From Escherichia phage HMD-P3, in sequence record PQ462667.1: a DNA stretch of 64,000 nucleotides. One strand, given 5' to 3'. A program made the translations under genes and the position numbers. The notes below the pieces were generated by a model that saw nothing but the letters and a program-made list of their open reading frames with translations, ran no database searches and had not been told where the DNA came from. This document shows positions 11,900 to 25,842 of the stretch, in pieces. Numbering within the stretch: the stretch's first letter is position 1; each line of letters opens with the position of its first letter.

Positions 11900-11998
11900 T
11901 GTTTTTAAGTCTCCTTATTACTTTGGCCTGCTCCACAATAATAAAAACTGCAAGCACTAATAGTGCTATTAGCCCCGCAGTAATTGGTACTAAATCAA

Positions 11999-12325
11999 TC
12001 ATGGGAGACGCCATACGTAATTAGCTGTCTGTAGGATCTTAGGTGTGTCATTATGATACATTACTACAGACTTTGGTGAATAGCTATCAGCTAGTTCTTT
12101 ACGAATCATTTCACACTCTTCACCAGTATCAATATTTTTAACTATCACTTTCATATTAAGCGGTGTTAATACAGAAAGTGGTTTCCAGGAGTCCTCAATC
12201 TCAATTCCTACCTTTTTCTCGATTAACATGAGAACTTCTAATGTATCATCTGGAATACTAATATTATTATTCACAAACTGTAATATCTCATGTAAGGTAT
12301 TTAATTCATTAAAATTAAGCTTCAT
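11999..12325 (-). CDS. hypothetical protein
   Basis: 108-aa ORF. Confidence 0.5.
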   Translation of the reverse strand: MKLNFNELNTLHEILQFVNNNISIPDDTLEVLMLIEKKVGIEIEDSWKPLSVLTPLNMKVIVKNIDTGEECEMIRKELADSYSPKSVVMYHNDTPKILQTANYVWRLP

Positions 12326-12560
12326 CTTTAAGAATATCCTCTACCATATCACAAGACTGTTGCAATTCATTCGCAATTCGTTTAATATCGGTTTTTGTTA
12401 CTTTACCAACTAACATCACCAGTAGCATAGAAAAGATAATAAGTGGAACTGGAATAACAAATAAAGCTACCTTAACAACATTCTTTGGCGTCCATGTGTG
12501 GTATTTAGTAACCAGTACACCAACCACAATTAGATAAAACGCTAGAATAAACATCATCAT
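12315..12560 (-). CDS. small membrane protein
   Basis: Two hydrophobic helices. Confidence 0.5.
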   Translation of the reverse strand: MMMFILAFYLIVVGVLVTKYHTWTPKNVVKVALFVIPVPLIIFSMLLVMLVGKVTKTDIKRIANELQQSCDMVEDILKDEA

Positions 12561-12838
12561 TTTTTAATCTCCGTAATTATCTGTGCACGCATTACTTTAT
12601 TAGGTAATTTTGTATTCCCAGCTATTGCTTCAATATTGTTTAGTTTTTCTTTTAGAATATCTGAGCGTCTTTGTGCTAGTTCAATATCTTGTTCTTGTTC
12701 TATTAAGCGGCAGTGAAGTCCACTATTAGTAGTAAGCATACTCTCTATATTTTTTCGTATGCTTACAATACCAATAATCCCACCTATAGCTACTAGTGTC
12801 ATAAGCACTAGCAATCCAATGAGAATTTCAGTTAACAT
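12557..12838 (-). CDS. small membrane/coiled-coil protein
   Basis: N-terminal transmembrane helix, then coiled coil. Confidence 0.5.
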   Translation of the reverse strand: MLTEILIGLLVLMTLVAIGGIIGIVSIRKNIESMLTTNSGLHCRLIEQEQDIELAQRRSDILKEKLNNIEAIAGNTKLPNKVMRAQIITEIKK

Positions 12839-13001
12839 TAAATACCTCTACATTTTTCGTTATCCGGGACTAATTTACACATTTCTACATTTAACTCGTG
12901 GAGAGATTTGTCTACCTCAGTTAATCGCATGTTAAGAGCAACCATATTATATATTAATACTCCTATAAGGAATGACAGTATTGAAATTGATACTCTTTCC
13001 A

Positions 13002-13271
13002 TTATTTCTTACCTTTCAGTTGCTTAACTTCACGCTCAAAAGATGCTGCACGACGTTCAGCAGTCGCCTGATGTTCTTTCGCAAAACGTGCTTCCTGTTT
13101 TGCAAGGTTGAACGCCATAGCATTCTTATTCAGGGAATCATACATCTTTTTCATTGCCGGAATAGACATCTTCATGAGCTGGCCTTCAAAACCCTGCATG
13201 TCGAGGAGAATTGCCAGAACGTTAGCCATTTCGATTTTTGTCATGTTTTCCATTAGAATTTCCTCTCTCAT
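13002..13271 (-). CDS. hypothetical protein
   Basis: 89-aa ORF directly downstream of a T5-type early promoter/leader. Confidence 0.55.
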   Translation of the reverse strand: MREEILMENMTKIEMANVLAILLDMQGFEGQLMKMSIPAMKKMYDSLNKNAMAFNLAKQEARFAKEHQATAERRAASFEREVKQLKGKK

Positions 13272-13285
13272 TAATTTATGAACTT

Positions 13286-13314
13286 ATTATACAGAATTTT
13301 AAGGCTTAAAGCAA
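13286..13314 (-). promoter_or_regulatory. T5-type early promoter (TTGCTT-N17-TATAAT) with conserved leader
   Basis: Minus-strand reading: ttgctttaagccttaaaattctgtataat, then aagttcataaattaatgagagagga-ATG. Confidence 0.6.
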
Positions 13315-13331
13315 CTGAATTTTTTAATTAC

Positions 13332-13763
13332 TTACCAATCGTTAACAACGCCGGAGAACTCAGAAGCAAAAACTTTTTCAAATTTCTCTGCAATTTCAGG
13401 ATGATCTTTGCAGATCAGCTCAATACAGGCTTCTGGAGTCATCCCTTCATCTTCAGGATCACCATAGTATTTATCCCAAAGATCATCAGGAATGATATGC
13501 TCCGCCAAATCTTGGAAAGAGATTAACTGATAACGTTCTGCCTCCTCAGCGATAAGAATTTCGCACAGATCTTTATCTATATCGCTACGATAATCCGCAA
13601 TTAATAGGGCATTGCAAGCATGACATTCCCAGACCATCAAACGTTCAGAGATAGGGTTAGACTTATCCTGAACGTAAGACTGGAACAAGGTTCGGAAAGT
13701 TGCCTTAACTTGTTCAAACTTATCTGCTGCTGCGAAAACTAGAGCTTTATCAACTTTGTTCAT
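13332..13763 (-). CDS. hypothetical acidic protein
   Basis: 143-aa ORF with promoter/leader module upstream. Confidence 0.55.
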   Translation of the reverse strand: MNKVDKALVFAAADKFEQVKATFRTLFQSYVQDKSNPISERLMVWECHACNALLIADYRSDIDKDLCEILIAEEAERYQLISFQDLAEHIIPDDLWDKYYGDPEDEGMTPEACIELICKDHPEIAEKFEKVFASEFSGVVNDW

Positions 13764-13930
13764 TTTGATTCCTTCTCATCAATTTATAAAGTAATTATAC
13801 AGAAACTTAAGCATTTTAGCAAATAAAACTTTTAATTAAAATGCCTAATCCCGTGCCAATAGCAATACAAATGATTATAAGTATTGCTATCGCTTGTATG
13901 ATTCGTTTAATAATAGCCTCAGCTATATAC

Positions 13931-14521
13931 TTAGACATTTATATCACCACGTAATACAGCAGCTACATCTTCCCCTATTTGTAATACTTCGCCGGTAGTA
14001 CAATTAACTACTCTATCATAGCTAGTAAACTTACCAGACACAATATCCTCTAGTGGAACTGGAGTTTTACTCATTTCAAATGAGACATTAATATAACGTG
14101 GGTCACGTAAAGAAATAGTATGTACATGTCCGTGAATATTTAGTTTACCACGAAGTTCATTGGGGTGCAAAGGGCAGTGAGATAACCAAAACTTTTTGCC
14201 ACCTCCAGTCTGTTTACCTAGAGCCTGAATATCATCATAAACTTCCACTAAGTCCCTAATACTCAGTCCTTGACGCTCCGCATCATGATTACCCATAATC
14301 AGTTGATTAGGAACATTGTGGATAACCGACTTTAATTTGGCCAAGCCTTCACGACCTACTGCAATATCTCCTAGCAAAATAAGTTTTGTTCGCTTACCAA
14401 TATTCTTGGACAAAGTATCTAAAATATACTCATCGTGTTCTTTCATGTTCTTAAACCACGGACGGAAACGTAACGCTCCAGGGTGATCTAGGTGCAAGTC
14501 TGACCAGAATTTAACTTTCAT
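13931..14521 (-). CDS. calcineurin-like metallophosphoesterase
   Basis: Motifs SDLHLDH, GDIAVG, GNHD, GHVH. Confidence 0.7.
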   Translation of the reverse strand: MKVKFWSDLHLDHPGALRFRPWFKNMKEHDEYILDTLSKNIGKRTKLILLGDIAVGREGLAKLKSVIHNVPNQLIMGNHDAERQGLSIRDLVEVYDDIQALGKQTGGGKKFWLSHCPLHPNELRGKLNIHGHVHTISLRDPRYINVSFEMSKTPVPLEDIVSGKFTSYDRVVNCTTGEVLQIGEDVAAVLRGDINV

Positions 14522-14837
14522 TACTCTTTTCCTTATTCTGTATTAAACTATCAGCCCAAGAGGTTAACACTTTGGTTTTAAACTCCTCTGGAGTCTCTCC
14601 TTCCTTAAGGTCTACCTCATTAAGGTAGGTAGTAAGCCTTGTTTCTATCTCTATTTCAGCAGGAGAATTAAAACAAAAATTGACTGCTATTCCAGAATAT
14701 ATTACTCCGGTATCTCCTTTGACGAAAGCATTAACTAATGCCCTCCAACGAAGGGCATCAATACGCATTGCTCGTAATTCTTCTTGTACTTCTTTCATTC
14801 TATCATTCATTAAAGAATCCTCTGTACACCGCAGCAA
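14511..14837 (-). CDS. hypothetical protein
   Basis: 108-aa ORF. Confidence 0.5.
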   Translation of the reverse strand: MLRCTEDSLMNDRMKEVQEELRAMRIDALRWRALVNAFVKGDTGVIYSGIAVNFCFNSPAEIEIETRLTTYLNEVDLKEGETPEEFKTKVLTSWADSLIQNKEKSNES

Positions 14838-15685
14838 TTATTTTTATCTGTGGTAAATGTGGTGATTTTGCCCGTTTCATCATTAACTTGCGCAACCGTC
14901 AACTGCCCGTTGAAAACACCGCCAGTATCAAGATAAACACGGTTTTTATAAAGAAGTGGGTAAGGAACCCCAGTGTGTCCGTGGAACACAAAATCTACCC
15001 CCTTAACTTCTGGCACTTCTACCATGTATTTTTCTTTAAATCCTGCATAACGCTGGAAATATGGGTGTTCCTCACCATTTTTGGACAAGTAGAAGCCTAT
15101 TTCTTGGATTACATCTCGATCCCATAAATATGGTTCAACATGGTATCCCGTATGGTCATGTGGGTCTTCCTTAGCTGCTTCTACTTGCGCAATAAGATTA
15201 TCCCATACTGGGGTTTCTACTTCATTACCGCATTCTTTGTACGTAAAAGGTACACCACCATGAACAACACCAAATTTCTTACCACGATGTCTAACAGTTA
15301 GGAATACTGGCATTTTTTCAGCCATATCTTCGGCAATATTTTTAATGGTGTCTGCATCTAGTTCATTCATAGCCCACATACCACCATTATACATCCAATT
15401 AGCCCAATCTCCCACAATCATAAATTGGTCATGATTACCCCGGACACTGATAAAGCGTGGATTATATAGGAATTTGGCTAAAACTTGTAAGTTTTGTGTA
15501 CCTCGGTCAATTAAGTCACCAACACATACTACGCAATCTTTTTTGCTATTATACCCCGCTAATTTCAGCGCATCTTCTAGCAAATCGTTGCATCCATGAA
15601 TATCACCAACGAAAAACAAGTTGGCCTCATCCGGCACTACTAGAGTTTTATGTACATTGAATTCTTTTTTCATAATTATTCCCAA
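14810..15685 (-). CDS. serine/threonine protein phosphatase (PPP family, lambda-phosphatase-like)
   Basis: Motifs GDIHG, GDLIDRG, GNHD. Confidence 0.8.
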   Translation of the reverse strand: MGIIMKKEFNVHKTLVVPDEANLFFVGDIHGCNDLLEDALKLAGYNSKKDCVVCVGDLIDRGTQNLQVLAKFLYNPRFISVRGNHDQFMIVGDWANWMYNGGMWAMNELDADTIKNIAEDMAEKMPVFLTVRHRGKKFGVVHGGVPFTYKECGNEVETPVWDNLIAQVEAAKEDPHDHTGYHVEPYLWDRDVIQEIGFYLSKNGEEHPYFQRYAGFKEKYMVEVPEVKGVDFVFHGHTGVPYPLLYKNRVYLDTGGVFNGQLTVAQVNDETGKITTFTTDKNNCCGVQRIL

Positions 15686-15921
15686 ATAACAGTTAAAATA
15701 GTTGTGCCATAATCATTAGATAGTTGGAGAGTATAACCCTCTTTATAGAGGGCTTTTATAGCTTCATAACTAATTTCATCACGATTAAACTGTACAAAAG
15801 AGCCTCCAATCTCCACAGAAGAAACTATTCTCTTTTTAACATACTTATATGGTTTCTTTCTGCTATTAATAAGTGCAGCTCTATTTATCCTGGCTAAACG
15901 TTTTGCTTGTTCCGCTAACAT
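15676..15921 (-). CDS. hypothetical protein
   Basis: 81-aa ORF. Confidence 0.45.
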   Translation of the reverse strand: MLAEQAKRLARINRAALINSRKKPYKYVKKRIVSSVEIGGSFVQFNRDEISYEAIKALYKEGYTLQLSNDYGTTILTVIWE

Positions 15922-16018
15922 TTAATCCTCCAATCAATTTATATAAGTATTATACCAAAATTTTTAGCAAAAAGCAAGTAAAATAAAAGCCTGATCAGCT
16001 AAGATCAGGCTTTGTTTA

Positions 16019-16309
16019 TTAGTCCTCTGGATTATCATCCAGGAAATTTTTAATAGCTTCGTGCATAGTTTCTTTACGAAGCTGACGTCCAATCAGAATA
16101 TGATTAGCTTCTACTCGACCATTAGGTAAGCGATCCGCCAGAACTACTACAGGAACTTGGCGCACACCAAATTTCTGCATTAATTCTGTATTATCAGTCT
16201 CTTTATGGATTTCCAAATTATAGTCACTGACTACTTTATCAAATACTGGCTCAAACATTTTGCAAGGATTGCAAGTGGAACCTTTCAATAGATATACTAA
16301 TTTACTCAT
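16019..16309 (-). CDS. thioredoxin/glutaredoxin-fold redoxin-like protein
   Basis: CxxC motif (CNPC) near the N-terminus, size about 10 kDa. Confidence 0.5.
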   Translation of the reverse strand: MSKLVYLLKGSTCNPCKMFEPVFDKVVSDYNLEIHKETDNTELMQKFGVRQVPVVVLADRLPNGRVEANHILIGRQLRKETMHEAIKNFLDDNPED

Positions 16310-16733
16310 AGTTATTAATGGCCTCTAAGAAGTTTCTCATAGTTTTTACGGTTGCGGTGCTTAGATCAAGATTTACACCCAAACACTCGGTTAATGCCTC
16401 CTGATAAGGAGCCTTCAATCTGCCTTCTGGGACTTCTACCTTTTTATACTCTTTATTTTTGACCTTTTTAATCATAGTCTCTAGTACAAGAAGCGGTAAT
16501 TTAGCACCTTCAATATCAGTACCCAAAAGTTCAGTTAAAATTTTATTAAGATCAAGACGAGTTAACTTTTTGCCCTTAGACATAGATGCACCTACCTTTG
16601 TATCAATAGATTTTTCCGCTTTCTTTTCGAGCTTTTTGTACTCAGGAGAGTCATGATCACGGAGTGCAATGTTTAGCTCGTAATGTGGTATACGAAAATG
16701 TTCCGCCATTTGAGTATAGAAACGATCAGACAT
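16302..16733 (-). CDS. hypothetical protein
   Basis: 143-aa ORF. Confidence 0.5.
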   Translation of the reverse strand: MSDRFYTQMAEHFRIPHYELNIALRDHDSPEYKKLEKKAEKSIDTKVGASMSKGKKLTRLDLNKILTELLGTDIEGAKLPLLVLETMIKKVKNKEYKKVEVPEGRLKAPYQEALTECLGVNLDLSTATVKTMRNFLEAINNYE

Positions 16734-16808
16734 AATATATACCTCTCTTAACTAATTTATGTATATATTATATAATAACTAGGGCTAAAAGTCAACTACT
16801 TTTTTATC

Positions 16809-17225
16809 TTAATCTACTACATGTATAAATCTTTTCCTAACTAGATACATAGTTATTGGGTAAATTGAGTACATAAGTATCGGGGAGAAAAGGGTGAAAT
16901 ACGCTGTAACTCCCCCAGCTAACATCAAAGGTATTAATGCTAGAGTAAGGGCCATAAGAATCATGCCGAATGAAACAGCCAAAGCTATGGATACTGGATT
17001 CTCTAGTTCCATCCATAGCCAACAGTACTTCGTATCTCCATGGCAATTGTATTTACAAACGCCGAATGAACCCATAATTATATACTCTAGTCCTTGAATA
17101 ATCTTTATTAATAAGTTATTTCTGGTAACTAGTGCAATGATAGTAAAGATTATCAGTGCAACGAATACTACTAGACTTATTTTCCAGATACCTAGCAGCA
17201 TCATAGTGAATAGTTCTGCAAACAT
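16809..17225 (-). CDS. integral membrane protein
   Basis: Four hydrophobic segments. Confidence 0.5.
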   Translation of the reverse strand: MFAELFTMMLLGIWKISLVVFVALIIFTIIALVTRNNLLIKIIQGLEYIIMGSFGVCKYNCHGDTKYCWLWMELENPVSIALAVSFGMILMALTLALIPLMLAGGVTAYFTLFSPILMYSIYPITMYLVRKRFIHVVD

Positions 17226-17304
17226 GGCTTTCTCCTATCTTTAGAAAATTATTAAAGCCCCCTTTTGCCTAAAAAGGCGGGAATATTCCCGCCTCAGTTA
17301 TTAA

Positions 17305-17718
17305 TTAAACTAGTTCTACATGACCGCCATCATAGGTACCACGTTTTATTTCGTCGTGATAGTCTCCCGAAGCATTCCAATCAGCACCAAAACGAAGTTT
17401 AATACCTAGTTCTTTACCTGCTTGTTCAAAAGCCTTTTTAACTGCCCAAAATGCTTCTAAGTCGTTCCAATCAATCTTGCCATTAATGTATGGAGCAAAA
17501 TCAAGAGCATCCCCAGTAATATGCTTGCTTTTACTAGGATCTTTTAAAAATGAAGTACCATTAGCAATATTCTGGGCACTTTGTGCTACTGTACGAATAC
17601 CTTGTACGATCGTAAAATCATATGGAGATAATTCTAAAGCTCTACGAGCTACTTTTTGTAACTCTGGCTTAACAGTAGCTAACTGTTTTTCGCTATTTTT
17701 ACCAAATTTAAAACTCAT
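17305..17718 (-). CDS. lys: endolysin, L-alanyl-D-glutamate peptidase (M15 zinc peptidase, T5 Lys-like)
   Basis: 137 aa; M15 H...D...H signature (HITGDALD...GGHVE); agrees with my recollection of the T5 endolysin. Confidence 0.85.
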   Translation of the reverse strand: MSFKFGKNSEKQLATVKPELQKVARRALELSPYDFTIVQGIRTVAQSAQNIANGTSFLKDPSKSKHITGDALDFAPYINGKIDWNDLEAFWAVKKAFEQAGKELGIKLRFGADWNASGDYHDEIKRGTYDGGHVELV

Positions 17719-18371
17719 ATTGATCTACCTAAAGATCTCTGTTGTGGGGAACAGAGCTTTGTTAAGTACTCGTTAAATTTCTCAGAATCGGCTGCATCTA
17801 CAGGATTATCTTTCCAAGCAATACCAATATATCCAGCATAGATATTGTTTAGATTGAAATACGGACAAGTGTATATGTAATTAAAAGTAACGTTCTTAAA
17901 CGCAGGTATATTTAACCCCATGTATTTATTTACTTTTACACTTAAGTCCGAGGCGTAGTTAAAGCCGTCTAAGTGTCGTCTATATAGCTCAGACGTTTTA
18001 TTTACTGCTTTATCGGCCAAGTCAGCCCTATCTAATTGCGCATTGCTTTCCCATGCAATAATGTTAGAATAATCATTAACGGCTTCGGGTTTATACTTGA
18101 CAACAAAAACAGCATCCGCACCCGTTTGGGAAAAAAGAACCATGCTCTTTTCTCTAGCTACGTTAGGAAAATTACTTATCCTTTGAGTTTGAACATCCTG
18201 TAGAACCGCAGACGTGGAGAAAGTCTTTAAGAATGACATCACCTCACTAGTATTACTAACAAATAAGAAAATAATGACAGCAACTAAGATAGTTAGCAGA
18301 CGTTTAAGAAGCGATGCTGGATCTTTCGCTTCTTGGAGCAGTACCGTTAATAATTGTAAGAACTTTTCCAA
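17715..18371 (-). CDS. putative holin
   Basis: Immediately upstream of and overlapping the endolysin; transmembrane helix ILVAVIIFLFV. Confidence 0.5.
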   Translation of the reverse strand: MEKFLQLLTVLLQEAKDPASLLKRLLTILVAVIIFLFVSNTSEVMSFLKTFSTSAVLQDVQTQRISNFPNVAREKSMVLFSQTGADAVFVVKYKPEAVNDYSNIIAWESNAQLDRADLADKAVNKTSELYRRHLDGFNYASDLSVKVNKYMGLNIPAFKNVTFNYIYTCPYFNLNNIYAGYIGIAWKDNPVDAADSEKFNEYLTKLCSPQQRSLGRSI

Positions 18372-18527
18372 TTGTAACCTCCTCTAACCAGTACCATTAT
18401 ACTAATTTTGGAGGAAAATTACAATGTGTTTTTAAAGATCACTTCTGGAGCATAAAATTTTGTCGTTGTCAAGAAGAATTTTAGATAAAAGAAAAGCCAG
18501 GGTCGTTAAACCCTGGCTTAAAACTAC

Positions 18528-19127
18528 TTACTCTTTGTTGTGCTCCTCGAATTGAGGTAACTGGGCTTTATTATATTGCTCAGATCGATATTTTGCCAAG
18601 ATTTCAATACGCTTATGGATTTCTTTGCTATCTAGATAGATATTTTTATTGTCTTTTACCATCTCGTCGATTTCGTCTATTGAGAAGAACGGATAGTAGA
18701 CATCTAGCATCATATCTTCTACGAACTTGTTGTAAGATTCATAGGCTTTCTTGATTTCTTGACCCTTCTCACAGAATCCGCCAGAGAACGTGTGTCCCAT
18801 TAGCGTAGCATGTGGATGTACTACCCACCCATGGCAGGATAGGAAAATTGTGCAGTAAGCAGAAGCACTAGGACCAACCAGATGCCCTATAACTGTTCCA
18901 CGGCAATTAGCAATTAAGTTAGATAACTGTGCAGCAGTATCAACATAACCACCCGGGCCATTAATCATCAGATTAATTTCGTCATCCTCATGTGCCTGCA
19001 TAAGTACCATTGATAAATCACGGTATTCATCCGGCGGGCCTAATTCTTCATCAAAGAAAAAGGTATACTCGTTAGATTGGCGAATGGAGTGAAACAGGTT
19101 AGTCTTTTCTTCTTTTTTATTAGTCAT
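18528..19127 (-). CDS. ClpP-like serine protease
   Basis: NGPGG motif and GPSAS serine-containing segment resembling ClpP. Confidence 0.5.
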   Translation of the reverse strand: MTNKKEEKTNLFHSIRQSNEYTFFFDEELGPPDEYRDLSMVLMQAHEDDEINLMINGPGGYVDTAAQLSNLIANCRGTVIGHLVGPSASAYCTIFLSCHGWVVHPHATLMGHTFSGGFCEKGQEIKKAYESYNKFVEDMMLDVYYPFFSIDEIDEMVKDNKNIYLDSKEIHKRIEILAKYRSEQYNKAQLPQFEEHNKE

Positions 19128-19139
19128 AGCGATCCTTGA

Positions 19140-19892
19140 TTATCCAACTAGTGGTTCTAGCTCTAAGTCACAGAAGTTATAAACTTCTAGTTTAAGATTA
19201 TTGATACCATCGAATTTATTAACTAATTCGTGAGTAATATATTTTGCAGGAATACCACTTTCAGATGGATGATCTGATTTAATAGTGAACTTCTGCTCAG
19301 CGGGTACTACATTTACTATCAAAGAATCCATATCTAAATGGTTTGTTTCTCTGAGTAACTCTCCTTCGTTGGGGAATCTAACATCTGTTATTACGGCGAC
19401 GTCTGGGTCGTCTTTAGCGATGGATTGCTCCAGAATTATGAGCCAAATGCGTTCATGCACCAGCTGCCTTCCTAGCTCTGTCCCTACGAGCTGTAACATT
19501 TTTCTCGGAGAAATAAATAAACTATAAAGTCCGTCTTCTTTATTCTCTGAGATAAGTTGTTGAGGATTAAGGTATTTTTCCTCAAAAATAGGCCAAACGT
19601 ACGAGAAGTCTTCAAACTTATCGATACCGTACTTAAACCACACATCTCTGGCTCGCTCCAATTGAGATTGTGTGACCGTAAACCATTGGTCAATCTCTTT
19701 TCCCCTGCGCTCTCCTAGAAACTCTGGAGTTACACCGAGGATTACGGATGCAAGTTCATAAACGGGCTTAGCAAAACTATAACGACGGGATAAACACGTT
19801 GGATACGTGTCATTACACCAATCGATAATTAATTTTGCAACGGTATCTTTTCCCGAACCAGCTTCACCATGTAAACCGACTAATACTGACAT
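19140..19892 (-). CDS. dnk: deoxynucleoside monophosphate kinase
   Basis: Walker A GEAGSGKDT at the N-terminus; 250 aa as for T5 dNMP kinase. Confidence 0.75.
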   Translation of the reverse strand: MSVLVGLHGEAGSGKDTVAKLIIDWCNDTYPTCLSRRYSFAKPVYELASVILGVTPEFLGERRGKEIDQWFTVTQSQLERARDVWFKYGIDKFEDFSYVWPIFEEKYLNPQQLISENKEDGLYSLFISPRKMLQLVGTELGRQLVHERIWLIILEQSIAKDDPDVAVITDVRFPNEGELLRETNHLDMDSLIVNVVPAEQKFTIKSDHPSESGIPAKYITHELVNKFDGINNLKLEVYNFCDLELEPLVG

Positions 19893-20245
19893 TAATCTTT
19901 CCTATTGTTAATTGGTGGATAATATACTAAACAACGTTTTTCTTGCAAATCCTGACGATAGAAGCAAACCATACCTGTCAGTCGTGAAATATATGAATAT
20001 TCTGCCTCACGGCATTTTGCCAACATATTCCAATCTTTATATGGTACAACAACTACTACGCCATCTTCTCCATTTGTAGCTAATTTCTTTTCAAACTTAA
20101 AGTCAAAGCTACAAGGTTGGAGTCCTTTAGGCCAATCTACATGAGCTGTTGGTAACTCATGTGAGGGTTCTGGCTTTATTTCTTGCGCACAGCCTGTGAT
20201 TGTGATTGCGGCTGCGAGCAGTATTCCACACTTCCAGAAAGACAT
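19892..20245 (-). CDS. putative o-spanin (outer-membrane lipoprotein, Rz1-like)
   Basis: Signal peptide with lipobox ITGC; 5' end overlaps the 3' end of the upstream gene by 70 nt. Confidence 0.5.
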   Translation of the reverse strand: MSFWKCGILLAAAITITGCAQEIKPEPSHELPTAHVDWPKGLQPCSFDFKFEKKLATNGEDGVVVVVPYKDWNMLAKCREAEYSYISRLTGMVCFYRQDLQEKRCLVYYPPINNRKD

Positions 20246-20619
20246 GCTAATCTCTCCTCAAATTCTTTACTCTGCTTTTTAGCATTTAATGTTACCAATC
20301 CAGGCTTTGCAGCTATAATGTCTTGACGACTAAGTGCTTTATCAAGCTGACTAATCTTTTTGTCTAGATCTGCTTGCGAAATATTATTCATTGTGAAATA
20401 CTGATTCATTCTAGTCTCACGAAGTTCGCTTTCAGCTTTCACTTTATTAAGTGAAGTCTCTAGAGAAGAAATCTTTTTAGTAGCTACCGCAAGATCTCCC
20501 GCCAAAGTCTCCACTTTATTTACTAAGTGATAAGCACCGAATCCGATGCCTATCGCTAGACCTGCTCCCAGGATATACCACTTACCTTTCCATAGAGAAC
20601 CGATAAAGTTTTTTATCAT
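20176..20619 (-). CDS. putative i-spanin (Rz-like)
   Basis: N-terminal transmembrane helix YILGAGLAIGIGFGAY, then coiled coil. Confidence 0.5.
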   Translation of the reverse strand: MIKNFIGSLWKGKWYILGAGLAIGIGFGAYHLVNKVETLAGDLAVATKKISSLETSLNKVKAESELRETRMNQYFTMNNISQADLDKKISQLDKALSRQDIIAAKPGLVTLNAKKQSKEFEERLACLSGSVEYCSQPQSQSQAVRKK

Positions 20620-21296
20620 CTTTTCATATTCCTGAATGACGTAACCGTATCAAATCCATGTGCTGCTAGACGGTCTTTATCTGATACAGTAATCATATCA
20701 GGCTCGCCCGTCCCTAACACGCCCCAGATATATTGCTCGATCATCTGGTGCAAACGGTATAAGTTACTTTCAATTTCCTGCCACGGAATACCTGATAGGT
20801 GTAGACGCGGATTAGTTATAATCTTGAAGTATTTATTGCTATCTTTATCATTTGGAACTAATGAATCTAGAACTGCTAGCGGTACTCTTAGCTCAGATAA
20901 GGCTTCTTTAGCTTTCGGGGTAACTTCTTCTTGCCACGATAAGATCGACTCTTTTGGCTTCCCTCTGTTTATGTCTAGCAAAGAAAACCCTGTTGACCAT
21001 CCCTTCTCATCTAAAATTTCTAACGCCTTGTCCAGGCTGAAGGTTTTTACTTGGGTATCCAGTACATCAATGTGGTATAACCAGTAAATCTCCCCAGCTA
21101 GGAAGAAAGGCAAAATTTTAAAGTAGCCAATCTTCCCCTCAATACGAGCAATCCTACGTTCTTGCATGATCATATAGTTGCCCTCATCTGGGGCTTTTAT
21201 TGTTAGCTCTTCAGTTTTACGTTCCCAAACACGATCTGCGTCAAATAAACTGTTCTGCAAATCATACACATCTACGAATTTAGAGATGATTCTCAT
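20616..21296 (-). CDS. hypothetical protein (226 aa)
   Basis: Long ORF. Confidence 0.55.
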   Translation of the reverse strand: MRIISKFVDVYDLQNSLFDADRVWERKTEELTIKAPDEGNYMIMQERRIARIEGKIGYFKILPFFLAGEIYWLYHIDVLDTQVKTFSLDKALEILDEKGWSTGFSLLDINRGKPKESILSWQEEVTPKAKEALSELRVPLAVLDSLVPNDKDSNKYFKIITNPRLHLSGIPWQEIESNLYRLHQMIEQYIWGVLGTGEPDMITVSDKDRLAAHGFDTVTSFRNMKR

Positions 21297-21450
21297 ATTT
21301 AATCCTCTTGCCTCAATCTATGAGTATATTATACAAAAGTTTGGGCATCTAAGCAACTAAAATTTTATTATAAAAATAGCCCAGTCGCAAAAGTGCAGGC
21401 TGGGCTTTGTCATTATTTGCTTTTGCTAGTAAGTTGATTTAGCATCAATC

Positions 21451-21831
21451 TTATGTAATATTAGTTTCTCTAGCTTTGTGTAGTACCCCTGCATTTCTCC
21501 ACAATTTGATGTCAGCAACTGTTTCTTTATAAGGAGCTATGGTAAAACCTAGTGGGCCAGCACCAAATAATCCTAAGAATCCTATTGCACGCATGTAGAA
21601 TAAACATTCTTCGCCTGTCATTTCTTCAACTGCTTTTCTTTGTTTTTCGTTTTCAAACCCGTGCTCCTTGTTGTCTATACGAAGGTGTTTAATGAACCAT
21701 TCAGCAGAATATTCATCTAAGTGTCTAAGTATAGCTATTGCATATCCAGCGCCAATTAAAAACCAAGCGGTAACAAGAATTAGTACTATAGTCATATAAT
21801 CTCCAGTTAAGGTCAGCGACCAACTCACCAC
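21451..21831 (-). CDS. membrane protein
   Basis: Hydrophobic segments. Confidence 0.5.
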   Translation of the reverse strand: MVSWSLTLTGDYMTIVLILVTAWFLIGAGYAIAILRHLDEYSAEWFIKHLRIDNKEHGFENEKQRKAVEEMTGEECLFYMRAIGFLGLFGAGPLGFTIAPYKETVADIKLWRNAGVLHKARETNIT

Positions 21832-21906
21832 TTACCGCACTAAGGGGGCACGACTCCCTTATCCGTAACAGTTGCAGGTGACGCAACTCGGTCCTACGCG
21901 AGTTCT

Positions 21907-22191
21907 TTAGGTATTCTGCATTTCAGCTTTAAATTTTTTCATATTACGAGTCTTTCTATAAAAGAAAAACACAGATGTTGGGCCTAGAAGAATATCCACA
22001 ATAAATATCATAGATCTAGCACATCTGAGTAATGTTTTATCATCAAGAGGAGGCAGATCTAACGGTCGAGTTTTATGTATAACGTATAATATTACATCTT
22101 TATTCTTAGAAACATACAGATCATCAACCAAGCTGTAAATAGCTACTATAGATCCAATGACGAACCAAAGAGCAAATGGAGAGATAATCAT
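21907..22191 (-). CDS. small membrane protein
   Basis: Hydrophobic N-terminus. Confidence 0.45.
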   Translation of the reverse strand: MIISPFALWFVIGSIVAIYSLVDDLYVSKNKDVILYVIHKTRPLDLPPLDDKTLLRCARSMIFIVDILLGPTSVFFFYRKTRNMKKFKAEMQNT

Positions 22192-22484
22192 TTCAGATCC
22201 TTTTCATTAATTAGAATATTAGTAAACAGTGGAGTAACTCCTAGACTCATAGTAGGTCCAAACGTATTCATGGCTACCCACAATTGCATAGTGATCATCC
22301 CATCTTTAATCTCTGGATCTTTATATTCTTCGATACGTTTTTTGGCAAAGGCAACTACATCTGGAGTACTACCGTTCTTTACAACATGATCATGCCAAAA
22401 CTGAGCGTTTTCACTCCGTAGGAATGTTAAAACATCCTTAGTTGCTGGAATCTGCACTGTGCTATTGATGTTTAGTCTTTTCAC
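22188..22484 (-). CDS. hypothetical protein
   Basis: 98-aa ORF. Confidence 0.45.
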   Translation of the reverse strand: MKRLNINSTVQIPATKDVLTFLRSENAQFWHDHVVKNGSTPDVVAFAKKRIEEYKDPEIKDGMITMQLWVAMNTFGPTMSLGVTPLFTNILINEKDLK

Positions 22485-22881
22485 GTTCTTCTCTCCGACG
22501 TTTGCGTTCTTTCATCATATGAGCTGCTACAACTTCATGGTAGTAGTCATTAATGTTACCTTCTGGTAAGAAATGCTTAATAGTCTCTAACTGACAAATA
22601 ACTCGATGAAGATGGTTATTTGGTAGACATAATTTTATACCTGCAACAAATCCAGAGAAGCCTGGAATACTGAACATGGGTTGGGCTTCTGCTCTACCTT
22701 CAGAGTTGATATTAAGCTCAATTGAGATACCCATTTTCATACTATAAAGCTGGCAATATTCTCCATTACCAGACCTTGACCAAACAGTGAAATCCTCATC
22801 AATTTGATCTTGAATTTCCGTAATTGCAAATTTAATTCTAGGGTCTAAATTATTCATCTTCACCTTCAAAGTCGCAATCAT
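22462..22881 (-). CDS. hypothetical protein
   Basis: 139-aa ORF. Confidence 0.5.
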   Translation of the reverse strand: MIATLKVKMNNLDPRIKFAITEIQDQIDEDFTVWSRSGNGEYCQLYSMKMGISIELNINSEGRAEAQPMFSIPGFSGFVAGIKLCLPNNHLHRVICQLETIKHFLPEGNINDYYHEVVAAHMMKERKRRREEREKTKHQ

Positions 22882-23155
22882 AACGACAAGTAAAAGAACT
22901 GGAGCTATTAGTACGTTGAGTGGTTATTTCACCACGTTTGCTAATAGTAACGGCTGGAGTAGAGAAGTTTTTATTAGTATAGATCTCTACTTTACCATTA
23001 CGTTCCTTAACATCACGAACTTTACCATACTCGGTAATAATGCCGTTCTGTTGGACTTTAACATTACCATTTTTCATAGAAACTTTGGTAGATGCCAGAG
23101 AACCGAAACTAACTGTGGAGATCATCAGTGCAATAATAAACTTATTCATCTTCAT
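22850..23155 (-). CDS. secreted/periplasmic protein (signal peptide)
   Basis: Start moved to MKMNKFIIALMISTVSFGSLAS. Confidence 0.5.
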   Translation of the reverse strand: MKMNKFIIALMISTVSFGSLASTKVSMKNGNVKVQQNGIITEYGKVRDVKERNGKVEIYTNKNFSTPAVTISKRGEITTQRTNSSSSFTCRYDCDFEGEDE

Positions 23156-23423
23156 CCTCCCCACTACAATCACGACATACATCATAATCGTTGAAAGAAC
23201 GTTCGTGAGCTTCACACCACCAAGAACAAGAATCGCAGAGAAACATTTCGGTTTTCTCTAGTGCTTGGCCTAAAAGATCATCAGCTTCCTCAGCAGTAAT
23301 CTTCAATCCGCACACATCTGCCACACGTTCTTTAATTAAACGACCTGCTTCGTGGTAAGACATACAGGTTCCCGCAACATCATGTTCAAGAACATGAACA
23401 GCACAGTCTAGACGAGTTTTCAT
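23142..23423 (-). CDS. Cys-rich zinc-finger-like protein
   Basis: CDSCSWWC...CRDCSGED; promoter/leader module upstream. Confidence 0.5.
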   Translation of the reverse strand: MKTRLDCAVHVLEHDVAGTCMSYHEAGRLIKERVADVCGLKITAEEADDLLGQALEKTEMFLCDSCSWWCEAHERSFNDYDVCRDCSGEDEDE

Positions 23424-23499
23424 TTCAAACCTCTCTCATCAATTTATAAACATATTATAGCAAGAAAAGAGAGGTTTAGCAAATGAATTATTTCAGAAT

Positions 23500-23847
23500 T
23501 TAGTCATAGCACCACCATAATCCACGCTTACGCATGTCATGATCGCGATTATAATCATAATTTTCTGGATCTTTCATCACGCGGTGGAGTTCTTGACGAT
23601 TCCCTTGACGAACCATTTTATTAGAATGCCACTTAACATTCTTACTAATAGAATTCCAGTTATAACCATCCTTTTTCTCATTACGAATGGTTGCTTCCTT
23701 CATTTCCTGTTCTACATCATCCCAGGATTTAGCATAAATAACACGAATCCAGTAGCCATTTTCTTTGAGGAAAGAATATTCTTGAGAGAAGTGTTCTTTA
23801 GACTTCCACCACTGATCACCAGATTGTCTACGATAAGTACGGCTCAT
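23500..23847 (-). CDS. hypothetical basic protein
   Basis: 115-aa ORF. Confidence 0.5.
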   Translation of the reverse strand: MSRTYRRQSGDQWWKSKEHFSQEYSFLKENGYWIRVIYAKSWDDVEQEMKEATIRNEKKDGYNWNSISKNVKWHSNKMVRQGNRQELHRVMKDPENYDYNRDHDMRKRGLWWCYD

Positions 23848-23968
23848 ATTACCTCCATTAAGTCTTTTAAATTAACCTAATGTGGGTGAATTTTATTATA
23901 CATAAACTATTTTCCTGTATACAGAAAAACCCCAGACTACTTATTCAATAGCTGGGGTTTGTTATTAA

Positions 23969-24283
23969 TTACAGATCGGGGCGTTCATCTTCGAAACAGC
24001 CTGAGCTAATTCCTTCTCCGAATCCTACAAAGCCATCAAATTCATCATTTGAGATGCCCATAATCATTGCTTCCATTTTCCTAATCTCCGAGATTTTCAT
24101 GCCTGCTTTACTATTCTTATAGTACTTGCGAGGGTTCCCACACATCCAACAAGAACAGATGCAAGGAGTAGTAGTGATAATACCTAACCGCTTAGGGCTT
24201 TCTTCATGTGGAAAGACTGTCCAGTACTTCTTGCGGTTGTTCTTCACACGTTGCCGGTGATGACGTCTTAATGCTCGATCCAC
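23969..24283 (-). CDS. Cys-rich protein
   Basis: CICSCWMCG cluster. Confidence 0.45.
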   Translation of the reverse strand: MDRALRRHHRQRVKNNRKKYWTVFPHEESPKRLGIITTTPCICSCWMCGNPRKYYKNSKAGMKISEIRKMEAMIMGISNDEFDGFVGFGEGISSGCFEDERPDL

Positions 24284-24364
24284 ACATTTCTCCTAAAACT
24301 TGGGAGATAAACGGAGTTTGCTCGACTACCTTGCGTAGCTGGGAGAAATCGTATCCAAACCCCA

Positions 24365-24733
24365 TTACATCGCCTGAGTAAATGTACGACTAATAACGTC
24401 GTTCTGTTGTTCACGAGTCAGTGCATTAAATCGAACAGCGTAGCCAGAGACACGGATGGTCAACTGAGGATATTTTTCAGGATGTTTCTGCGCATCCAAA
24501 AGCTGATCACGGCTTAACACATTGACATTTAGGTGCTGACCACCTTCGATTTGAGGGGCGACTTCCACTTTGACTTCACGGAAGGCTTCGGGATCGAATT
24601 GTGGTGTGATACCTTCTAGATCTTCAACTAGAACTTTCTGTTTAAGTTCACCATTGTCGGAGTATAGCTGAATAATCTGATTTTCATGAACAAGGTTAAT
24701 TACGCCAGATTTAAGATTTTGATATGCTTTCAT
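24365..24733 (-). CDS. grcA: autonomous glycyl-radical cofactor (GrcA/YfiD-like)
   Basis: C-terminal [29 protein letters not shown], near-identical to the E. coli YfiD glycyl-radical motif. Confidence 0.85.
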
Positions 24734-24756
24734 TAGATCTCCCCGATGTTAGAATT

Positions 24757-24832
24757 TGGTAGTTAGTAGTGGATTTGAACCACTGTAGTCGCTCCGTATG
24801 AAGGAGGTGCATAACCACTCTGCCAACTAACT
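24757..24832 (-). tRNA. tRNA, anticodon CAT (Met or Ile2)
   Basis: Hand fold: acceptor agttagt/actaact, T-loop ttcaaat, anticodon loop ttCATac, encoded CCA. Confidence 0.6.
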
Positions 24833-24928
24833 ATTATGTTTTATTAGGCTAAGTAAGTATTCTTTATACTCTCTAGTCCAATTAGCTTTTTTAAACTTTC
24901 CTGGACGCATAGTCTTAATTCCTAAATT

Positions 24929-25005
24929 TGGTACTCCGGGAGGGATTTAAACCCCCGATCTCTCGGTTATCAGCCGAGTGCTTTAGATCGCTAAGCTACC
25001 GAAGC
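24929..25005 (-). tRNA. tRNA-Ile (GAT)
   Basis: Anticodon arm ctcgg-ctGATaa-ccgag; T-arm and CCA present. Confidence 0.7.
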
Positions 25006-25006
25006 A

Positions 25007-25234
25007 TTAACATTTCACAGCAGAACGTTTGCCATTTCTAGGTGCACCTGGAAGTCGTGCACGTTCTGCCATTCTTCGCTTAATCTTTGAGATATTTTCT
25101 AGTGTTTGTTCTTCAGGCTTAATACCTGAAACACTACACCACTGATTACCATCCCATGCGGTAATGATCATAACACCATTACCCATAATCTTTTCTGTGA
25201 AAGTAATTCTCATTATAGCAACTCGTCTAAGCAA
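25007..25234 (-). CDS. hypothetical protein
   Basis: 75-aa ORF. Confidence 0.45.
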   Translation of the reverse strand: MLRRVAIMRITFTEKIMGNGVMIITAWDGNQWCSVSGIKPEEQTLENISKIKRRMAERARLPGAPRNGKRSAVKC

Positions 25235-25506
25235 GAGGTATATTTAAGTTTACCATCTTTATCTACTTTGATTTCGACTTCCGCTCGTGGTACTTGACGA
25301 ACTACACCATGAATCATCTTATAGCGAATGCCTTTAGCTGGTTCACGATCTTTTGGAAATACTTGCTTAACCGTTACTACTTTATACCCTTCACGCGGTG
25401 TTAACACTACTACTTGATCACCTTCTTTGATCTTCCAAGAGCTAGGAAATTCATAGGTATAGCGTTGACCACCAGTTTGGAACACAACAGAAAGATAACG
25501 TTTCAT
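25213..25506 (-). CDS. hypothetical protein
   Basis: 97-aa ORF with promoter/leader module upstream. Confidence 0.5.
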   Translation of the reverse strand: MKRYLSVVFQTGGQRYTYEFPSSWKIKEGDQVVVLTPREGYKVVTVKQVFPKDREPAKGIRYKMIHGVVRQVPRAEVEIKVDKDGKLKYTSCLDELL

Positions 25507-25573
25507 TTGGTTTCCCTCTCATTAATTTATATAAATATTATAACAATAAATAAGAGAGAAAGCAAATGAATTT

Positions 25574-25741
25574 TTAATAAAGTTTAGTCACTTCATAAAC
25601 TATACTACGAGATTCTTTATTACGTTGTATTAAATTAGCATATGCTTCTTCAGCTTCATTTTTAGTATTAAAGTCTATAACGTGAGAGGTATTAGCTCTG
25701 TTTGATTGGCTATACCAGATAACTACTAGGAGTTTAAACAT
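25574..25741 (-). CDS. hypothetical small protein
   Basis: Start moved to an internal Met to avoid overlap with the tRNA 3' end. Confidence 0.35.
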   Translation of the reverse strand: MFKLLVVIWYSQSNRANTSHVIDFNTKNEAEEAYANLIQRNKESRSIVYEVTKLY

Positions 25742-25755
25742 ACTAATCCTTAAAT

Positions 25756-25842
25756 TGGTGCTGGGCACAGGATTCGAACCTGCAACGGGATTACTCCTCC
25801 TGATTACAAATCAGGTGCATTCAACCATTCTGCCAACCCAGC
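25756..25842 (-). tRNA. tRNA with long variable arm, anticodon ambiguous (loop UUUGUAA)
   Basis: Acceptor gctgggt/gcccagc, T-arm gcagg-ttcgaat-cctgt, 15-nt variable arm; UGU by standard numbering, GUA if shifted. Confidence 0.6.

What the first reader, a model, noticed from the sequence alone, without database searches (positions are those of the whole stretch)
17305..20619. Lysis functions split into two early-region modules: endolysin/holin and a separated spanin pair
The M15 endolysin (17305..17718) and an overlapping upstream membrane ORF (putative holin) are followed 1.5 kb away, beyond ClpP-like and dNMP kinase genes, by a classic embedded-overlap pair: a transmembrane plus coiled-coil protein (20176..20619) and a lipobox lipoprotein (19892..20245) overlapping by 70 nt. 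The spanin assignment is by architecture only.
Basis: partly seen in the sequence, partly recalled or inferred. Interest (0 to 1): 0.4.

Follow-up and report, generated by a model that had tools for sequence, protein, structure and literature searches.

The report
Known T5-type split lysis genes
This stretch of a T5-like phage genome carries the four genes that burst the host cell (holin, endolysin and a two-part spanin) in two neighbouring operons, an arrangement already catalogued for phage T5 and its relatives, so the finding is correct but ordinary.

Summary
The window is a T5-like phage (98.4% nucleotide identity to Salmonella phage vB_SalS_ABTNLsp4), and all genes in the finding lie on the minus strand.

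- **Endolysin (17305..17718):** it matches the solved T5 L-alanyl-D-glutamate peptidase (PDB 2MXZ, E 1e-90).
- **Holin (17715..18371):** it is a full-length T4-type holin (Pfam Phage_holin_T, E 2e-112).
- **Spanin pair:** 20176..20619 encodes a membrane-anchored helical protein. 19892..20245 encodes a lipoprotein with lipobox ITGC. The two overlap by exactly 70 nt.

The spanin call no longer rests on architecture alone. The two proteins fall in the same PHROG families (739 and 812) as T4 PseT.3 and PseT.2. That T4 pair complements lambda Rz/Rz1 mutants, and the two cysteines essential in PseT.2 are conserved here (C94, C105).

Kongari et al. 2018 already list a "T5 family" of overlapped spanins and state that the T5 spanins overlap by 70 bp. 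Several GenBank records annotate the same ORFs as i-spanin and o-spanin.

A terminator (18519..18494) and a promoter-like site (18424..18396) split the genes into two transcription units, as annotated in T5.

Two corrections: the architecture is "overlapped", not "embedded", and the spanins lie upstream of holin and endolysin in the direction of transcription.

The parts
20616..21296 (-). T5.047-like ORF of unknown function (226 aa). It is the first gene of the spanin-containing transcription unit, and its stop overlaps the i-spanin start (ATGA).
   Evidence: ORF. phrog_4243, unknown function, E 2e-106. It occupies the same upstream position in T5, Klebsiella, Pantoea and Enterobacter T5-like phages. 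A role in lysis is not shown.
20176..20619 (-). i-spanin (147 aa). It has an N-terminal TMD at residues 15-33, a periplasmic helical/coiled-coil domain, and a C-terminal tail carrying C126 and C134.
   Evidence: phrog_739 'Rz-like spanin', E 4.2e-37, the same PHROG as T4 PseT.3. BLASTP against PseT.3 gives 27% identity, E 1e-6. Hydropathy and heptad analysis; AF2 helices 3-77, 82-102 and 109-128. 88% identical to T5.045. Annotated as i-spanin in GEC_vB_N5.
19892..20245 (-). o-spanin (117 aa precursor). It has a signal peptide with lipobox ITGC (Cys19, +2 Ala) and periplasmic cysteines C45, C78, C94 and C105.
   Evidence: phrog_812 'Rz-like spanin', E 3.4e-29, the same PHROG as T4 PseT.2. BLASTP against PseT.2 gives 29% identity, E 4e-7. 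T4 PseT.2 picks this ORF as the single best tblastn hit in the 64-kb window (E 6e-5). G18, C19, H35, W38, P39, C94, Y96, R97, E102 and C105 are invariant in T5-like and T4-like homologues. A GAGGAG ribosome-binding site lies 8 nt upstream.
20176..20245 (-). 70-nt dual-coding overlap. It encodes i-spanin residues 125-147 (including C126 and C134) and o-spanin residues 1-23 (signal peptide and lipobox Cys19).
   Evidence: The same 70-nt overlap occurs in T5 and GEC_vB_N5 and is stated for T5 in PMC6139136.
19140..19892 (-). dNMP kinase (dnk, 250 aa). This is a nucleotide-metabolism gene lying between the lysis modules. Its ATG overlaps the o-spanin stop by 1 nt.
   Evidence: Pfam DNMK, E 1.5e-11. 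phrog_139, E 7e-52. T5 dnk (T5.043) occupies the same position.
18528..19127 (-). ClpP-like protease homologue (199 aa), the last gene of the spanin-containing unit.
   Evidence: Pfam CLP_protease, E 9e-8, above cutoff. phrog_1827, E 1.6e-89. All NCBIfam ClpP and head-maturation protease hits fall below their cutoffs.
18494..18519 (-). Intrinsic terminator: an 11-bp stem (6 G-C pairs) followed by a T-run, 9 nt after the ClpP-like stop.
   Evidence: It corresponds to the terminator annotated at the same place in T5 AY543070.
18396..18424 (-). Sigma-70-type promoter-like site (TTGTAA-17-TATAAT) upstream of the holin gene.
   Evidence: A promoter is annotated at the equivalent place in T5. This is a consensus match only.
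17715..18371 (-). T4-type (class III, T) holin, 218 aa. It has a single TMD at residues 20-38 and a large C-terminal periplasmic domain.
   Evidence: PF11031 Phage_holin_T, E 1.8e-112, covering profile positions 2-233 of 233. phrog_860 holin, E 6e-78. TMD. 94% identical to the T5 holin; 64-67% identical in Klebsiella, Pantoea and Enterobacter phages.
17305..17718 (-). Soluble endolysin, an L-alanyl-D-glutamate peptidase of the M15 family (EndoT5 orthologue), 137 aa, with no signal or SAR sequence.
   Evidence: PDB 2MXZ/8P3A, E 1.3e-90 over residues 1-137. phrog_465 endolysin, E 2e-54. No hydrophobic segment. H66, D73 and H133 are present in the translation.
17271..17293 (-). Intrinsic terminator after the endolysin gene (GGCGGGAA-TA-TTCCCGCC followed by TTTTT).
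   Evidence: Read directly from the sequence. A terminator is annotated at the equivalent place in T5. The automatic scan did not list it.

Best explanation
This is the standard lysis gene set of a T5-like phage (Demerecviridae, Tequintavirus-type), arranged in two adjacent minus-strand transcription units.

- Unit 1 runs from about 21390 to the terminator at 18494. It encodes a protein of unknown function, the i-spanin, the o-spanin (70-nt overlap), the dNMP kinase and a ClpP-like protein.
- Unit 2 runs from the promoter-like site at 18424 to the terminator at 17271. It encodes a T4-type holin and a soluble M15 L-Ala-D-Glu peptidase endolysin.

The mechanism below is inferred from the characterised homologues.

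1. The holin accumulates in the inner membrane and forms holes at a set time.
2. The signal-less endolysin passes through the holes and cleaves the peptidoglycan stem peptide.
3. The spanin complex is already assembled across the periplasm. The i-spanin is anchored by its N-terminal TMD. The o-spanin is lipidated at Cys19 and sorted to the outer membrane because residue +2 is Ala. Once freed from the murein mesh, the complex destroys the outer membrane, probably by fusing it with the inner membrane.

The spanins are distant homologues of T4 PseT.3/PseT.2, not of lambda Rz/Rz1. The intervening dnk and ClpP-like genes are most simply unrelated early genes sharing the operon.
For: Identity of the phage:
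- 98.4% nucleotide identity to Salmonella phage vB_SalS_ABTNLsp4; 453 phage records match, nearly all T5-like.
- The region is collinear with T5 AY543070.

Endolysin and holin:
- Endolysin matches 2MXZ at E 1e-90.
- Holin matches PF11031 at E 2e-112.

Spanins:
- They hit phrog_739 and phrog_812, which are shared with T4 PseT.3 and PseT.2.
- Pairwise BLASTP gives E 1e-6 and 4e-7.
- The o-spanin lipobox Gly-Cys and the C94/C105 pair are invariant across T5-like and T4-like homologues. C94 and C105 align with PseT.2 C87 and C98, both shown to be essential (PMC6139136).
- T4 pseT.3/pseT.2 complement lambda RzamRz1am.
- The T5 family of overlapped spanins and the 70-bp overlap are described in PMC6139136.
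- GenBank records annotate the same ORFs as i-spanin and o-spanin.

Operon structure:
- Terminator and promoter lie between the modules; a terminator follows lys.
- The same features are annotated in T5.
- The gene order spanins-dnk-ClpP-like-holin-endolysin is conserved in Klebsiella, Pantoea and Enterobacter T5-likes whose spanins are only 24-45% identical to the window's.
Against: - The searches here turned up no direct experiment on a T5-family spanin, holin or their timing. Function is carried over from T4 and lambda.
- i-spanin homology to PseT.3 is weak pairwise (27% identity). T4 PseT.3 does not recover the ORF in a tblastn of the whole window, so this link rests on the PHROG profile.
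- Pfam and NCBIfam have no model that hits either spanin, and no solved structure matches.
- The promoter and terminators are consensus matches plus annotation in T5, not mapped transcripts.
- 'Early' expression is by map position only.
Confidence: 0.9

Rival explanations
1. The lipoprotein is not a spanin subunit but a receptor-blocking or superinfection-exclusion lipoprotein, like T5 Llp or the Cor proteins. The neighbouring TM/coiled-coil protein would then be an unrelated bitopic membrane protein.
For: T5-like phages do encode a small early lipoprotein, Llp, that blocks FhuA (mentioned in PMC4342426). Neither spanin ORF hits any Pfam or NCBIfam model. The i-spanin gives a weak sub-threshold FtsL hit (21 bits against a 50-bit cutoff).
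Against: The o-spanin matches the profile that contains T4 PseT.2 (phrog_812) and conserves the lipobox and the functionally essential Cys pair. The pairing with a PseT.3-family gene holds in every T5-like genome examined. The FtsL hit is what a TMD followed by a coiled coil would produce by composition.
Confidence: 0.03
2. The six genes from the i-spanin to the endolysin form one functional lysis module. On this view the ClpP-like protease, and perhaps dnk, takes part in lysis or its timing, for example by processing or degrading the holin or a regulator, so the 'split' is only apparent.
For: The order spanins-dnk-ClpP-like-holin-endolysin is conserved even where the proteins have diverged to 24-45% identity. 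The ClpP-like gene directly precedes the holin promoter.
Against: A strong terminator and a promoter-like site separate the ClpP-like gene from the holin gene, and T5 carries the same annotation. dnk is a nucleotide-metabolism enzyme. Nothing links ClpP-like proteins to lysis in T4 or lambda. Conserved order is expected anyway within one virus family.
Confidence: 0.05
3. The spanin pair is dispensable or vestigial, and outer-membrane disruption in this phage is achieved by another factor, or by endolysin action and turgor alone.
For: No experiment on T5-family spanins was found. Lambda spanin mutants lyse in shaken culture without added divalent cations (my own knowledge of the lambda literature, not checked here).
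Against: Both frames are conserved across more than 500 genomes, including the dual-coded 70 nt where the i-spanin Cys motif and the o-spanin signal peptide/lipobox are both preserved in distant relatives. No other lipobox-plus-TMD candidate was noted in the region.
Confidence: 0.02

Closest known systems
Phage T5 T5.045/T5.044 (the 'T5 family' of overlapped two-component spanins, Kongari et al. 2018, PMC6139136)
   Same: Orthologues, 88% and 96% amino-acid identity. They share the same lengths (147 and 117 aa), the same 70-nt overlap and the same neighbours: dnk, ClpP-like, holin C1 and lys.
   Different: T5 has the HNH endonuclease gene hegF inserted immediately upstream of the i-spanin, and the window does not. 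Six nucleotides in the overlap differ, changing both proteins (i-spanin LSGSV against LTGNL; o-spanin MSFWKC against MFNWKL).
Phage T4 PseT.3 / PseT.2 spanins (experimentally validated; separated architecture)
   Same: They fall in the same PHROG families 739 and 812. Both have a TMD followed by a helical i-spanin. The o-spanin shares the lipobox and the motifs H..WP, P[YF] and C.YR..L.E..C, with the essential Cys pair conserved. In both phages the spanin genes lie away from the holin and endolysin genes.
   Different: Identity is only 27-29%. The T4 genes overlap by 4 nt only. PseT.3 (117 aa) lacks the C-terminal tail of about 25 aa with two Cys that the T5-like i-spanins carry. T5-like o-spanins have an extra Cys pair (C45, C78). 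Kongari et al. list the T5 and T4 families separately.
Lambda Rz / Rz1 (embedded two-component spanin)
   Same: Same division of labour: an inner-membrane bitopic coiled-coil protein plus an outer-membrane lipoprotein encoded in a different frame of partly shared DNA. The T4 homologues substitute functionally for Rz/Rz1.
   Different: No sequence similarity was detected: no hit to any Rz or Rz1 Pfam model at E<=0.1. Rz1 is wholly embedded in Rz, whereas here the o-spanin gene extends 284 nt beyond the i-spanin stop. In lambda the spanins directly follow the holin and endolysin genes in one late operon.
T4 holin T (PF11031) with endolysin EndoT5 (PDB 2MXZ)
   Same: The holin is a full-length T-family member. 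The endolysin is essentially the solved T5 enzyme.
   Different: T4 pairs its T holin with a lysozyme (gpe) encoded elsewhere. Here the T-type holin gene is coupled by a 4-nt overlap to an M15 peptidase gene. No rI or rIII antiholin homologue was found in the 64-kb window.

Membership tests
Two-component spanin (generic definition; Summer 2007, Kongari 2018) | i-spanin: a single N-terminal TMD (N-in, C-out) followed by a predominantly alpha-helical periplasmic domain with coiled-coil propensity | tested here: met
   The TMD is residues 15-33 (mean KD 1.55), preceded by K3, K11 and K13. In residues 34-61, 100% of heptad a/d positions are hydrophobic. AF2 predicts helices 3-77, 82-102 and 109-128, with pLDDT 79-93 over residues 31-70.
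Two-component spanin (generic definition; Summer 2007, Kongari 2018) | o-spanin: a small protein with a signal-peptidase II signal, a lipobox Cys, and no Asp at +2 (outer-membrane sorting) | tested here: met
   The N-terminus reads MSFWK-CGILLAAAITIT-G-C19-A20. Lipobox ITGC fits [LVI][ASTVI][GAS]C. The Gly-Cys is invariant and +2 is Ala or Ser in all 7 homologues aligned. Actual lipidation cannot be tested here.
Two-component spanin (generic definition; Summer 2007, Kongari 2018) | The two genes are adjacent in one of three architectures (embedded, overlapped or separated) | tested here: met
   Overlapped: 70 nt are shared and the o-spanin frame is offset by 2 nt.
Two-component spanin (generic definition; Summer 2007, Kongari 2018) | The subunits bind through their C-termini and are required for outer-membrane disruption (complementation of lambda Rz/Rz1 mutants) | not testable with these tools
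   Shown only for the T4 homologues (PMC6139136).
T5 spanin family / T4 PseT.3-PseT.2 superfamily | Sequence homology of both subunits to the family representatives | tested here: met
   88% and 96% identity to T5.045 and T5.044. phrog_739 at E 4e-37 and phrog_812 at E 3e-29, the same PHROGs as T4 PseT.3 and PseT.2. BLASTP E 1e-6 and 4e-7.
T5 spanin family / T4 PseT.3-PseT.2 superfamily | Conserved C-terminal Cys pair of the o-spanin (PseT.2 C87 and C98, both essential) | tested here: met
   C94 and C105 are invariant columns in alignment A2. Essentiality in T4 comes from PMC6139136.
Lambda Rz/Rz1 family | Sequence membership in the Rz and Rz1 Pfam families, with Rz1 wholly embedded in Rz | tested here: not met
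   No Rz or Rz1 Pfam model was hit at E<=0.1. The o-spanin gene extends 284 nt beyond the i-spanin stop. It works like Rz/Rz1 but is not a member of that family.
T4-type holin T (PF11031) | Full-length match above the gathering threshold, with a single TMD and a large C-terminal periplasmic domain | tested here: met
   374.9 bits against a 22.2-bit cutoff, covering profile positions 2-233 of 233. One TMD at residues 20-38 of 218.
M15 L-alanyl-D-glutamate peptidase endolysin (EndoT5) | Near-identity to the solved enzyme, Zn ligands present, no export signal | tested here: met
   2MXZ at E 1.3e-90 over residues 1-137. H66, D73 and H133 are present in the translation; their role as ligands is from my knowledge of EndoT5 and was not checked here. 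No hydrophobic segment. The Pfam M15_4 hit is just below cutoff (23.2 against 25 bits).

The most novel reading that the evidence does not exclude
The holin-endolysin unit may have an unrecognised third member. The conserved 4-TMD protein at 16809..17225 (T5.039 homologue, phrog_5944, no known function) lies directly after the endolysin terminator with no promoter-like site of its own. It keeps this slot in divergent T5-like phages. It could be a lysis-timing regulator (antiholin-like) for the T-type holin in a phage in which no T4 RI/RIII homologue was detected.

A smaller variant of this reading concerns the spanins. The T5-clade i-spanin tail with C126 and C134 is encoded wholly within the 70-nt overlap and is absent from T4 PseT.3. 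Together with the extra o-spanin pair C45/C78, it may give this family a different disulfide logic from T4.
Probability: 0.12. Interest if true: 0.4.

Novelty: already known. Interest (0 to 1): 0.08.

Why it matters
It matters little beyond annotation quality. The arrangement shows that T5-like phages combine a T4-type holin and T4-related spanins with a different endolysin. It also shows that their lysis genes are dispersed among early genes rather than forming a lambda-style late cassette. Both points are already in the literature and in GenBank.

The practical value is for annotation. Many T5-like records still label one or both spanin ORFs 'hypothetical', or omit the o-spanin altogether, as in RefSeq SP01 where it starts with GTG. 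The coordinates and conserved motifs given here allow consistent annotation.

Tried and rejected
- **Pfam and NCBIfam on the two spanin ORFs:** no meaningful hits. The only results were sub-threshold matches to CNOT1, MctB and FtsL, which reflect composition.
- **PDB sequence search with both spanins:** nothing below E 0.03.
- **Hydropathy threshold:** a Kyte-Doolittle cutoff of 1.6 missed the Gly-rich i-spanin TMD. Recomputing gave 1.55 for residues 15-33, and AF2 shows this stretch as helix.
- **tblastn of T4 PseT.3 against the whole window:** it did not recover the i-spanin, whereas PseT.2 did recover the o-spanin. The i-spanin-T4 link therefore rests on the PHROG profile and a pairwise BLASTP.
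- **T4 pseT region:** my first guess at its coordinates was wrong; I corrected it.
- **Summer et al. 2007 (J Mol Biol 373:1098):** not held in the library, so I cite it from memory only.
- **Terminator after the endolysin gene:** the automatic scan did not list it. I read it directly from the sequence.
- **AlphaFold2:** run on the i-spanin without an alignment, giving mean pLDDT 66. I used only the secondary structure.
- **Not run:** the large protein-database searches, a second structure job and fold searches. The answer was already settled by the PHROG hits, T4 homology, GenBank annotation and the literature.
- **Llp/Cor-type lipoprotein reading:** considered and rejected; see the rival explanations.


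Full report
**What the window is.** The 4.5-kb stretch 16800..21300 is 98.4% identical to Salmonella phage vB_SalS_ABTNLsp4. It matches 453 phage records, almost all T5-like phages of Salmonella and Escherichia. The region is collinear with phage T5 (AY543070) in the same orientation: the window's 20176..20619 corresponds to T5 22802..23245. The 22 tRNA genes at 24757..37340 fit the T5 early-region tRNA cluster seen in the T5 record.

- The endolysin (17305..17718, 137 aa) has no hydrophobic segment.
- The ORF upstream of it (17715..18371, 218 aa) starts with TTG behind a GAGGAGG ribosome-binding site, has a single TMD at residues 20-38, and overlaps the endolysin start by 4 nt.
- The lipoprotein ORF (19892..20245) reads MSFWK-CGILLAAAITIT-GC19-A. 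Its lipobox ITGC fits [LVI][ASTVI][GAS]C, and a GAGGAG ribosome-binding site lies 8 nt upstream.
- The TM/coiled-coil ORF (20176..20619) has a Gly-rich TMD at residues 15-33 (mean Kyte-Doolittle 1.55). A perfect heptad register follows in residues 34-61.
- AlphaFold2 without an alignment predicts helices 3-77, 82-102 and 109-128 and a disordered tail, with pLDDT 79-93 over residues 31-70.

The two ORFs share exactly 70 nt, and the o-spanin frame is offset by 2 nt. These 70 nt encode i-spanin residues 125-147, including both of its cysteines, and o-spanin residues 1-23, which make up the signal peptide and lipobox. The gap between the o-spanin stop and the holin start is 1520 nt. It is filled by the dNMP kinase gene (Pfam DNMK) and a ClpP-like gene (Pfam CLP_protease, above cutoff).

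**What the genes are.**

- *Endolysin.* It matches the solved T5 L-alanyl-D-glutamate peptidase (PDB 2MXZ/8P3A) at E 1.3e-90 over its whole length.
- *Holin.* The 'membrane ORF' is a full-length T4-type holin: PF11031 at E 1.8e-112 covering profile positions 2-233 of 233, and phrog_860.
- *Spanins, profile evidence.* The pair is supported by homology, not only by architecture. The 147-aa protein hits phrog_739 (E 4.2e-37) and the 117-aa protein hits phrog_812 (E 3.4e-29), both labelled 'Rz-like spanin'. T4 PseT.3 and PseT.2, and their homologues in a Moonvirus, hit the same two PHROGs at E 1e-37 to 3e-43.
- *Spanins, pairwise evidence.* BLASTP gives 27% identity (E 1e-6) to PseT.3 and 29% identity (E 4e-7) to PseT.2. 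In a six-frame search of the whole 64-kb window, T4 PseT.2 picks this ORF as its only significant hit (E 6e-5). PseT.3 alone does not reach significance there, so the i-spanin link leans on the profile.
- *Conserved residues.* I aligned T5-like homologues (T5, Klebsiella, Pantoea, Enterobacter) with T4-like ones (T4, Citrobacter NM4.3). The o-spanin keeps G18-C19 (lipobox), H35, W38-P39, P68 and C94-x-Y96-R97...E102..C105 invariant.

**Experimental anchor.** Kongari et al. 2018 (PMC6139136) showed that T4 pseT.3/pseT.2 complement a lambda RzamRz1am lysogen. They also showed that PseT.2 C87 and C98 are both essential. These two residues align with C94 and C105 here.

**Operon structure.** On the minus strand an 11-bp-stem terminator (18519..18494) follows the ClpP-like stop by 9 nt. 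A TTGTAA-17-TATAAT site (18424..18396) precedes the holin gene. A second hairpin with a T-run (17293..17271) follows the endolysin gene. Upstream, the T5.047-like ORF (20616..21296) overlaps the i-spanin start by ATGA. The o-spanin stop overlaps the dnk start by 1 nt, and dnk and the ClpP-like gene are 12 nt apart.

T5's GenBank record annotates the same terminator-promoter pair between T5.042 and the holin gene C1. It also annotates a terminator after lys and a terminator/promoter before T5.047. So there are two units:

- [unknown, i-spanin, o-spanin, dnk, ClpP-like]
- [holin, endolysin]

In the direction of transcription the spanins come first. The order is conserved in Klebsiella, Pantoea and Enterobacter T5-like phages whose spanins are only 24-45% identical to the window's. 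The overlap is shorter in two of them: 40 nt in Pantoea and 43 nt in Enterobacter, by annotated coordinates.

**Mechanism (inferred).**

1. The T-type holin permeabilises the inner membrane at a programmed time.
2. The signal-less M15 peptidase escapes through the holes and cleaves the L-Ala-D-Glu bond of the murein stem peptide.
3. The spanin complex is anchored in the inner membrane by the i-spanin TMD and in the outer membrane by the Cys19-lipidated o-spanin. Once the murein is gone, it disrupts the outer membrane.

These steps are established for lambda and T4 homologues. For this family they are inference; I found no experiment on T5-family spanins.

**Comparison with what is known.** The finding is already described.

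- The 2005 T5 GenBank record notes similarity of T5.045 and T5.044 to T4 PseT proteins.
- Kongari et al. list a 'T5' family of i- and o-spanins (T5, EPS7, Stitch, SPC35, AKFV33, FFH1, DT57C, My1, phiR201, Shivani) under the overlapped architecture, and state that 'the T5 spanins overlap by 70 bp'.
[quoted passage not shown] - GEC_vB_N5, and by product name NR01 and several RefSeq records, carry spanin labels on these ORFs.
- That spanin genes lie apart from the holin and endolysin genes is also noted for T4.

The pair is not a member of the lambda Rz/Rz1 sequence family, since no Pfam hit was found.

**Differences from T4.** These may deserve a note but are not new. All five T5-like i-spanins carry a C-terminal tail of about 25 aa with a conserved C-L-[ST]-G-x-x-x-x-C-S motif that both T4-like proteins lack. 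The T5-like o-spanins have an extra conserved Cys pair (C45, C78). Kongari et al. tabulated cysteine counts across spanins, so this is at most an untested detail.

**Verdict.** Novelty is nil and interest is low. I did not run the large database searches because the PHROG, T4, GenBank and literature evidence already settled the question.

Noticed in passing
window 16809..17225 (-): A conserved 138-aa protein with 3-4 predicted TMDs (T5.039 homologue, phrog_5944, no Pfam or NCBIfam hit) lies directly after the endolysin terminator. No promoter-like site of its own precedes it; the next promoter-like site is at 16795..16767. It keeps this slot in Klebsiella, Pantoea and Enterobacter T5-like phages. 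It is found in 519 phage records, always labelled hypothetical or membrane protein. It could belong to the holin-endolysin unit by read-through.
   Followed up: partly
window 20616..21296 (-); L004 6004..6501; L002 4318..4815: The T5.047-like ORF overlaps the i-spanin start (ATGA) in the window. In T5 and GEC_vB_N5 an HNH homing-endonuclease gene (hegF) sits exactly at this junction. In Shivani and phiR201 a GIY-YIG endonuclease gene separates the two spanin genes (PMC6139136). The spanin locus looks like a hot spot for homing-endonuclease insertion.
   Followed up: partly
window 19707..19710 (within dnk): A GCGC site (CCCCTGCGCTCTCC) lies at the position equivalent to the 'major DNA single-chain interruption' annotated in T5 dnk (AY543070 22336..22337). 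The nick site of T5 DNA therefore appears to be conserved.
   Followed up: no
L001 (NC_047859, Salmonella phage SP01) 4593..4946 (-): The SP01 o-spanin ORF starts with GTG and is not annotated in the RefSeq record. Many other T5-like records label one or both spanin ORFs 'hypothetical protein'.
   Followed up: partly
window 20176..20245 (-): Compared with T5, SP01 and GEC_vB_N5, the window differs at the same six nucleotides inside the 70-nt overlap. This changes both proteins at once: the i-spanin reads LSGSV instead of LTGNL, and the o-spanin signal peptide reads MSFWKC instead of MFNWKL. The change adds a Cys to the cleaved signal peptide.
   Followed up: partly
L008 (Pantoea phage AAS21) 6992..7489: In the slot where the window has the M15 peptidase, this T5-like phage has a 165-aa Phage_lysozyme (PF00959) endolysin behind the same T-type holin. 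The endolysin has been swapped within an otherwise conserved module.
   Followed up: partly
window 18528..19127 (-): The ClpP-like protein scores best against ClpP-related head-maturation protease models (NF045542, phrog_1684), but far below their cutoffs. Its role in an early operon, away from the structural genes, is unknown.
   Followed up: no
whole window 1..64000: tblastn finds no homologue of the T4 antiholin genes rI or rIII, or of rI.1, in the 64-kb window, although the holin is of the T4 type. The rest of the phage genome was not available.
   Followed up: partly
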